The notes beneath the pieces were generated by a model. That model searched no databases, was not told the DNA's origin, and worked only from the letters and a program-made list of their open reading frames with translations. A stretch of 64,000 nucleotides of DNA from Callorhinchus milii (taxonomy: Eukaryota), in contig NW_024704742.1 of assembly GCF_018977255.1 (NCBI RefSeq), forward strand, positions 109,804,001 to 109,868,000, given 5' to 3'. The position numbers were made by a program, and so were the translations under genes. Shown one piece after another: positions 19,100-19,232 of the stretch. The stretch's first letter is position 1; each line of letters opens with the position of its first letter.

Positions 19100-19232
19100 A
19101 CACAAAATAGCGGAAAACAAAACAGAAGTCGCTGGGAACACTCAGCAGGTCAGGCAGCTGGAGAAAGGAAAGTGAGTCAACGTTTCGGGTCCACGACCCT
19201 TCGTCAGAACATCTTCTGTTTTTTGTTTTCAG
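19100..19232. repeat. Internally deleted copy of the same palindromic repeat
   Basis: AAACAGAAGTCGCTGGGAACACTCAGCAGGTCAGGCAGC...GGAAAGTGAGTCAACGTTTCGGGTCCACGACCCTTCGTCAG...CTTCTGTTTTTTGTTTTC. Confidence 0.75.

What the first reader, a model, noticed from the sequence alone, without database searches (positions are those of the whole stretch)
19172..19215. Hammerhead-ribozyme-like core in a palindromic repeat (minus strand)
Seen in sequence: the minus strand reads CUGACGA-A-GGGUC-GUG-GACCC-GAAA-CGUU. That is the CUGANGA...GAAA catalytic core around a perfect 5-bp stem II, followed by a palindromic AACGUU where stem III would be. Established knowledge: Penelope-like element termini carry minimal hammerheads with tiny palindromic stem III thought to work as dimers, and an extra A between A9 and G10.1 occurs in a natural viroid hammerhead. 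Inference: this repeat family derives from Penelope termini or is a retrozyme-like non-autonomous element. Stem I is weak in this internally deleted copy, so activity is unproven.
Basis: partly seen in the sequence, partly recalled or inferred. Interest (0 to 1): 0.7.

Follow-up and report, generated by a model that had tools for sequence, protein, structure and literature searches.

The report
Penelope-element stub with minimal hammerhead
The small self-cutting-RNA motif is real, but it sits in a 129-base leftover of the end of a Penelope-like jumping gene, inserted backwards in an intron of a cartilaginous-fish gene, and is an ordinary, probably inactive example of a kind described in 2014.

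Summary
On the minus strand, 19176-19210 is the only match in the window to the published minimal-hammerhead descriptor (14 hits in 2000 shuffles). It lies in a 129-bp insert (19102-19230) between perfect 14-bp direct repeats. The insert has a ~110-nt arm carrying the motif and a ~20-nt inverted arm. A second copy (36392-36600) has the same tail end, a 12/14 duplication, 86-nt inverted arms, a one-sided 27-nt extension and a broken stem II. Thousands of contigs from three organisms lie on the unit. This anatomy matches 5'-truncated, inverted, tailed insertions of endonuclease-bearing Penelope-like elements. A link to a Penelope ORF could not be shown, because no genome is held. The copy is probably inert: it is solo, antisense to an ARB2A intron, has a 3-bp stem I closed by U-G, and catalytic G12 decays across the family like other CpG sites. 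'Retrozyme' is not supported, as there are no tandem units. Earlier scan notes report the same kind of element elsewhere in this genome and in shark genomes. New member of a known kind; low interest.

The parts
19088..19101 (+). Left copy of a 14-bp direct repeat, read as target-site duplication (AT-rich)
   Evidence: 14/14 identical to 19231-19244
19231..19244 (+). Right copy of the 14-bp direct repeat
   Evidence: one contig of organism C resumes alignment at 19234 and skips 19025-19233 (tables 5 and 8)
19102..19230 (-). Whole 129-bp insert: long hammerhead-bearing arm plus short inverted arm
   Evidence: bounded by the direct repeats; contig depth almost confined to 19110-19221 in 4 of 4 runs
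19100..19210 (-). Long arm: 5'-truncated terminal (pseudo-LTR-like) fragment, from 3 nt upstream of the core to the tail end
   Evidence: 78 of 92 aligned positions identical to the second copy over 19119-19210; same first ten tail letters as the second copy
19176..19210 (-). Minimal type I hammerhead motif (stem I 3 bp, core, extra A, stem II 5 bp, no loop III); putative cut between 19179 and 19178
   Evidence: only hit of the published descriptor in the window; numbering
19179..19184 (-). Palindromic AACGUU that could form stem III only between two molecules
   Evidence: direct reading; self-duplex -4.9 kcal/mol for the 7-mer 19178-19184
19158..19176 (-). 3' splice-site-like tract (CUCAC, pyrimidine run, CAG) just downstream of the cut site; in the second copy it is followed by ATG and an open 26-codon frame to the tail end
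   Evidence: direct reading; the splice consensus is recalled knowledge, function untested
19100..19112 (-). One-sided tail extension, shortened by deletions relative to the second copy
   Evidence: alignment to 36391-36417; absent from the short arm
19211..19232 (+). Short inverted arm: second, head-to-head copy of the tail end; its last 2 nt overlap the right duplication
   Evidence: inverted repeats 19114-19128/19213-19227 and 19113-19122/19221-19230; alignment to the second copy's arm end
36378..36614 (+). Second family copy with 12/14 duplication (36378-36391, 36601-36614), 86-nt inverted arms, one-sided 27-nt tail (36391-36417), intact core letters at 36503-36531 but broken stems I and II
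50381..50598 (+). Host gene exon (ARB2A/FAM172A residues 191-263); sets host transcription on +, so the 19 kb motif is antisense
   Evidence: tblastn E 7e-24 and 2e-11; no hit for residues 1-190 in the window
62164..62292 (+). Host gene exon (ARB2A residues 262-304)
   Evidence: Pfam Arb2; 93% to a chimaera ARB2A, 79-86% to shark and ray proteins

Best explanation
A dead-on-arrival retro-insertion of the 3' end of an endonuclease-bearing Penelope-like element (PLE). In the parent element the minimal hammerhead sits in the terminal repeat, about 60-80 nt upstream of the tail end, and can cut only as a dimer or with protein help. The element's RT-endonuclease nicked both strands of an AT-rich target 14 nt apart and primed cDNA at the two tail start sites, one on each strand. 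One cDNA ran about 110 nt, through the hammerhead, and stopped 3 nt beyond the core; the other ran about 20 nt. The two were joined head to head and repair gave the 14-bp duplication. The template was uncleaved RNA, since the core upstream of the cut site was copied. At this locus the motif is a neutral relic: single, antisense to the ARB2A pre-mRNA, with a weakened stem I. Shown: motif, arms, duplication, second copy, abundance, host orientation. Inferred from published PLE anatomy and biochemistry: parentage, two-strand priming, inertness.
For: Descriptor match, 14 hits in 2000 shuffles. Same layout as published PLE motifs: consensus CUGANGAH, G10.1-C11.1, palindromic 15.2-16.2, stem I of 3 bp in fugu, Xenopus and coelacanth rows (PMC4209133 Fig. 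S3). Both window copies have 14-bp duplications (14/14 and 12/14), start with the same ten tail letters, overlap the duplication by 1-4 nt at each arm end and carry the extension on one side only. Published PLE insertions are 5'-truncated, with an adjacent inverted truncated copy and a 30-40 bp tail at one end (PMC8557442; PMC3846280, TSDs of 8-10 bp there). Purified Anolis PLE protein nicks and extends both strands of AT-rich DNA, starts at two internal sites that bound the tail, and uses uncleaved RNA (PMC11167929). 6604, 2057, 12204 and 13537 contigs laid in 4 of 4 runs from three organisms, with a fixed end near 19119-19122 and recurring opposite-strand joints into 19201-19210. G12 (19186) is changed in 7-16% of depth, like the other three CpG positions (10-15%). 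The hammerhead-compatible fold is 2.6-3.3 kcal/mol worse than the free fold.
Against: No direct tie to a Penelope ORF: none of 249 stop-to-stop frames of 58 aa or more in the window hit a GIY-YIG family; the putative N-terminal peptide found no longer protein and only one 71-aa unnamed product without further domains. No Rfam hammerhead hit. The duplication (14 bp) is longer than the 8-10 bp seen in the rotifer paper, and the tail (27 nt) is slightly shorter than 30-40 nt. Stem II covariation could not be tested; the one other copy breaks 2 of 5 pairs. Part of the right duplication (19231-19238) also resembles the tail consensus, so that boundary is ambiguous. The possible empty site in organism C also skips 63 nt of left flank.
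Confidence: 0.85

Rival explanations
1. A self-propagating non-autonomous mini-element (100-210 bp) that is transcribed as such and mobilised in trans by a PLE, rather than a truncation product of full-length PLE RNA. The hammerhead would be used in its own cycle.
For: Both window copies end 3-6 nt upstream of the core; many contigs end or switch strand at 19201-19210, and what follows 19210 is heterogeneous (agreement 0.36-0.46). PLE termini can act in trans (PMC3846280).
Against: Arm lengths differ greatly between the two copies (about 20 vs 86 nt) and the tail lies on the hammerhead arm in one and on the inverted arm in the other, which fits junctions made afresh at each insertion. The pile-up at 19210 is partly forced by this copy's own junction. 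No tandem units.
Confidence: 0.1
2. A MITE-like DNA transposon derivative with terminal inverted repeats, in which the hammerhead-like core is a chance or passenger sequence.
For: Inverted ends and a target duplication; no ORF link found.
Against: The ends are not symmetric (one-sided extension); the inverted arms are of variable length; the motif meets the full descriptor at 0.007 per shuffle; all 16 core and stem III letters are identical in the two copies.
Confidence: 0.03
3. An exapted, functional ribozyme at this locus, cutting an antisense or intronic RNA of ARB2A.
For: This copy keeps every core letter and a perfect stem II; it lies in a host intron.
Against: Antisense to the host gene; no partner in cis (the other copy is 17 kb away on the other strand with broken stems); single min-HHRs showed no cleavage in vitro (PMC4209133); the orthologous contig of organism C does not align across the insert.
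Confidence: 0.02

Closest known systems
Minimal hammerheads (min-HHR) of metazoan Penelope-like elements (Cervera and de la Pena 2014, PMC4209133; read: main text parts 1-2 of 4 and the whole supplementary PDF as text)
   Same: Type I layout, CUGANGA plus one extra nucleotide, G10.1-C11.1, palindromic C15.2-G16.2 with no loop III, short stem I, mostly solo dispersed copies. Closest listed rows by layout are Xenopus tropicalis (2) and Crassostrea gigas (3-bp stem I, 5-bp stem II).
   Different: No cartilaginous fish is among the rows of Fig. S3 or Table S1. Here stem I is closed by U-G and no ORF link is shown.
[quoted passage not shown]
   Same: 5' truncation, adjacent inverted truncated copy, optional tail at one end, short TSD, AT-rich target, hammerhead upstream of the RT start sites.
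   Different: Extremely short (129 bp), TSD 14 bp rather than 8-10 bp, tail 27 nt; clade cannot be assigned without the ORF.
Animal non-LTR retrozymes (PMC7229834 passages; bioRxiv 10.64898/2026.07.22.740005 parts 1-3 of 5)
   Same: Non-coding, type I hammerhead, probable PLE origin; the preprint finds them in its one chondrichthyan genome and notes solo monomers.
   Different: Retrozymes are head-to-tail tandem units of 150-450 bp, mostly with canonical hammerheads, expressed as circles. This copy is a solo head-to-head insert with a minimal motif.
Plus-strand hammerhead of chrysanthemum chlorotic mottle viroid (PMC3705267, passages)
   Same: Extra A between A9 and G10.1.
   Different: A full hammerhead in a replicating viroid RNA; no relation in origin is implied.

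Membership tests
PLE minimal hammerhead (min-HHR) | Meets the published RNAmotif descriptor (stem I 3-7, CUGANGA, stem II 3-7, loop 3-10, GAAANNUH) | tested here: met
   Re-implemented from Fig. S7; 1 hit in the window, 14 in 2000 shuffles
PLE minimal hammerhead (min-HHR) | Extra nucleotide between 9 and 10.1 | tested here: met
   A at 19200
PLE minimal hammerhead (min-HHR) | G10.1-C11.1 pair | tested here: met
   G 19199, C 19187; A-U in the second copy
PLE minimal hammerhead (min-HHR) | Palindromic 15.2-16.2 | tested here: met
   C 19182, G 19181; same in the second copy
PLE minimal hammerhead (min-HHR) | Multi-copy family with compensatory changes in the stems | tested here: inconclusive
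   Multi-copy: met. Covariation: only two full copies in hand; the second breaks 2 of 5 stem II pairs. Loose-end consensus letters suggest a 4-bp Watson-Crick stem I in the commoner form, not counted.
PLE minimal hammerhead (min-HHR) | Self-cleavage as dimer or with element protein | not testable with these tools
   needs in vitro assay
EN+ Penelope-like element insertion | Terminal repeat adjoins an ORF with PLE-type RT and GIY-YIG endonuclease in some copies | tested here: inconclusive
   No such ORF in the window (0 GIY-YIG hits in 249 frames); peptide searches blank or uninformative; whole genome not held
EN+ Penelope-like element insertion | 5'-truncated copy with adjacent inverted truncated copy | tested here: met
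   2 of 2 window copies; recurring opposite-strand joints
EN+ Penelope-like element insertion | Optional tail of about 30-40 bp at one end only | tested here: met
   27 nt one-sided in the second copy, shortened one-sided form here; matching loose-end consensus before 19122. Slightly short of the published range.
EN+ Penelope-like element insertion | Short target-site duplication | tested here: met
   14/14 and 12/14
Non-LTR retrozyme | Head-to-tail tandem units each with a hammerhead | tested here: not met
   No tandem array at either copy; only one intact motif in the window
Non-LTR retrozyme | Expression as linear and circular RNA monomers | not testable with these tools
   Only contigs were available, which cannot show strand, ends or level of an RNA
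Rfam hammerhead families | Score at or above gathering threshold | tested here: not met
   a motif without stem III is expected to score poorly (inference)

The most novel reading that the evidence does not exclude
The family is a distinct, very abundant chondrichthyan non-autonomous PLE satellite element whose 5' end is set by the hammerhead fold itself (reverse transcription stops or switches template at stem I), and whose ribozyme lies inside the 3' end of a spliceosomal intron, a few bases upstream of a branch-point-like and acceptor-like tract, so that self-cleavage competes with splicing and start-codon access in the parent RNA. Both window copies end 3-6 nt upstream of the core and carry the acceptor-like tract; nothing here excludes this.
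Probability: 0.1. Interest if true: 0.5.

Novelty: new member of a known kind. Interest (0 to 1): 0.15.

Why it matters
As a single relic it matters little. The class (PLE min-HHR) and the insertion anatomy are described. The family is of modest use as material: it is abundant in at least three organisms, so a genome-wide survey of duplication length, arm lengths, tail side and truncation points could test the two-strand priming model for PLE insertion in vivo. It would also add cartilaginous fishes to the published min-HHR list, where they are absent from Fig. S3 and Table S1 of PMC4209133. Four literature searches listed no paper devoted to hammerheads in cartilaginous-fish PLEs, but a 2026 preprint reports hammerhead retrozymes in one chondrichthyan genome; its supplementary tables could not be seen and may cover this family. 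Repbase and Dfam could not be searched.

Tried and rejected
Whole-genome survey: no genome is held for this window, so copy number, consensus, covariation and ORF linkage were not measured. Collection scans: viral contigs, three patterns, 0 hits each; metagenome contigs 9 loci and prokaryote genomes 2 loci, all 11 GC-rich prokaryote-like sequence with no similarity beyond the pattern, dropped. Plasmid and phage blastn: no match. Rfam: no hammerhead hit; two weak unrelated hits at E 0.83 and 7.9 rejected. The bare core pattern as evidence: rejected, at chance level. Relaxed search for more motifs in the window (one core mismatch): only this one. Peptide route to a parent ORF: no candidate among longer proteins (weak evidence by the tool's own note); one 71-aa unnamed product on a 1529-nt contig that matches residues 3-26 and then diverges, read as a spurious translation of another copy. 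Expression: no RNA holder listed; X5 is only guessed to be RNA, so nothing is claimed. Missing cover at 19238-19400 in X1 and X5 proves nothing. Table 3 omits places where its own loose-end consensus differs from the window (19166, 19178), so it is used only for the four CpG positions and not as allele frequency. The fold-back at 51488-51769 and the inverted pairs at 29904-30353 and 19935-20360 do not match this family. The intact-looking LINE ORF at 39012-42287 has an apurinic endonuclease, not GIY-YIG, and is not the parent. Lunse et al. 2017 on dimer cleavage is not held; I know it only from a review passage (PMC6765202). PMC4350176 and PMC9004415 (passages) gave only that PLEs occur in all vertebrates studied, elephant shark included. 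Earlier-finding look-ups by sequence and by nearby place were blank.

Full report
Observation. The motif is present as described. On the minus strand it reads stem I strand GUU (19210-19208), CUGACGA (19207-19201), an extra A (19200), stem II GGGUC/GACCC (19199-19195, 19191-19187) with loop GUG, GAAA (19186-19183), CG, U16.1, U17 (19179) and stem I strand GAC (19178-19176). The bare core pattern is at chance level: 6 matches in the window, shuffle mean 5.17. With structure it is not. The published minimal-hammerhead descriptor, re-implemented from Fig. S7 of PMC4209133, hits only this site in the window and 14 times in 2000 dinucleotide shuffles. A stricter Watson-Crick version gives 0.001 per shuffle. 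These figures do not correct for the window having been picked from many; the family context below is the stronger evidence. Rfam gives no hammerhead hit.

Anatomy of the insert. The motif lies in 129 bp (19102-19230) between two identical 14-mers, 19088-19101 and 19231-19244. The insert has a long arm (19100-19210), which carries the motif and runs 60-80 nt beyond the putative cut site to a fixed end, and a short inverted arm (19211-19232) that repeats only that end. A second copy lies at 36392-36600 with the motif on the plus strand. It has a 12/14 duplication, 86-nt inverted arms at 87% and a 27-nt extension on one arm only. Both copies begin with the same ten letters right at the left duplication, and each arm end overlaps the duplication by 1-4 nt. 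The extension is on the hammerhead arm in the first copy and on the inverted arm in the second. Over 19119-19210 the copies differ at 14 of 92 aligned positions, 7 of them in stem II and its loop; the 16 core and stem III letters are identical. The second copy fails the descriptor.

Family. No genome is held, and scans of viral, metagenome, prokaryote, plasmid and phage collections gave nothing relevant. Laying public contigs at 80% likeness on 18950-19400 put 6604 of 7.9 million, 2057 of 1.7 million, 12204 of 13.5 million and 13537 of 9.3 million records on the stretch, in two runs of organism A and one each of B and C, with depth almost all within 19110-19221. Depth is not a copy number, but the unit is clearly a very abundant repeat. 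Loose ends pile up at 19119-19122 and 19209-19210. Opposite-strand joints into 19201-19210 recur in all three organisms, so the fold-back form is common. None of the best-supported loose ends lies at the cut site (467 rows not shown). At the four CpG positions, the changed letter makes up 7-16% of depth at G12 (19186), 11-15% at C11.1 and 10-14% at 15.2 and 16.2. The catalytic G is thus no better kept than its neighbours. One contig of organism C aligns to 18950-19024 and again from 19234, skipping the insert; this hints at an empty site but also skips 63 nt of flank.

Host. Exons at 50381-50598 and 62164-62292 on the plus strand encode ARB2A/FAM172A; the best hits are cartilaginous-fish proteins (93% to a chimaera, 79-86% to sharks and rays). 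No exon for residues 1-190 was found, so the site is inferred to lie in a long intron. The motif is antisense to the host pre-mRNA.

How it most likely works. Cervera and de la Pena (PMC4209133; parts 1-2 of 4 and the supplementary PDF) describe minimal hammerheads in the terminal repeats of metazoan Penelope-like elements and thousands of solo copies per genome. They list an extra nucleotide after A9, G10.1-C11.1 and a palindromic 15.2-16.2 as recurring traits, all present here. Single motifs did not cleave in their assays; dimers cleaved weakly. PLE insertions are typically 5'-truncated, carry an inverted truncated copy and have a 30-40 bp tail at one end (PMC8557442, passages; PMC3846280, passages). 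Purified Anolis PLE protein nicks and extends both strands of AT-rich DNA, starts at two internal sites that bound the tail, uses uncleaved RNA, and its hammerhead cuts only with the protein present (PMC11167929, parts 1-2 of 4). I infer that two nicks 14 nt apart each primed a cDNA from a tail start site; one ran through the hammerhead and stopped 3 nt beyond the core, the other ran about 20 nt, and they were joined head to head. That accounts for the unequal arms, the one-sided tail, the duplication and the retained core. The parentage is inferred from anatomy: no GIY-YIG hit came from 249 window frames, and searches with the short frame that starts after the acceptor-like tract found no parent protein.

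Activity at this locus is unlikely. Stem I has 3 bp with U-G next to the core. Its pairs form with probability 0.11-0.16 in contexts of 136-451 nt, and a fold in which the core pairs with the palindrome or stem I is preferred by 2.6-3.3 kcal/mol. There is no partner in cis, and the strand is not the host's. No RNA evidence either way could be had.

Rivals. A self-propagating mini-element (0.10) would explain the similar truncation points but not the unequal arms and switching tail side. A MITE with a chance core (0.03) does not explain asymmetric ends or the descriptor match. An exapted local ribozyme (0.02) has no support beyond the intact letters. Retrozyme membership fails on tandem organisation (PMC7229834 passages; bioRxiv 10.64898/2026.07.22.740005 parts 1-3 of 5).

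Earlier scan notes. Nine notes on this genome fit 'Penelope hammerhead' (8 shown) and three on other genomes. They describe the same kind of stub with 14-15 bp duplications. They are unchecked AI notes and are not counted as evidence. My reading and the first duplication were recorded; one note prompted the check for a duplication at the second copy.

Verdict. Real, correctly recognised, and a new member of a known kind. What remains open is the direct ORF link, covariation and whether truncation at stem I and the adjacent acceptor-like tract say something about the parent's cycle. Interest 0.15.

Noticed in passing
window 36378-36614 (+): Second family copy, sense to the host gene, with a pyrimidine run and AG at about 36535-36555 that looks like a cryptic 3' splice site inside the ARB2A intron; hammerhead stems broken.
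   Followed up: partly
window about 32900-36400 (+): Decayed LTR-retroelement or provirus-like block: primer-binding-site-like stretch near 33114 (motif recalled, not tested), RVT_1 fragment at 35037-35252 (E 3.6e-5), YVDD codons at 35331-35342, many stops. The second family copy sits at its right end. Described only.
   Followed up: no
window 39012-42287 (-): Uninterrupted 1092-codon LINE frame with apurinic endonuclease and RT domains; likely a young L2/CR1-group copy, with shorter relatives near 18.3 kb and 60 kb.
   Followed up: no
window 50515-50521 (+): The ARB2A exon changes frame against three chondrichthyan proteins: probably a one-base assembly error, or a real frameshift.
   Followed up: no
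window 51488-51769: Fold-back with 122-nt arms at 93% and a 38-nt spacer, abutting a tRNA-derived SINE head; no hammerhead core and no match to this family.
   Followed up: partly
window 20175-20241, 28436-28507, 32419-32490, 42580-42651, 48104-48169, 51772-51842, 57008-57072: Seven tRNA-like Rfam hits that share sequence, read as heads of a tRNA-derived SINE family.
   Followed up: no
window 19935-20360 and 29904-30353: Inverted pairs of a LINE/SINE-type 3' tail ending in ATT repeats, about 300 nt apart; the first pair encloses a SINE.
   Followed up: no
protein P0066: Unnamed 71-aa product on a 1529-nt JGI contig matching the family's tail frame up to the tail end; probably vertebrate DNA in a metagenome.
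   Followed up: partly
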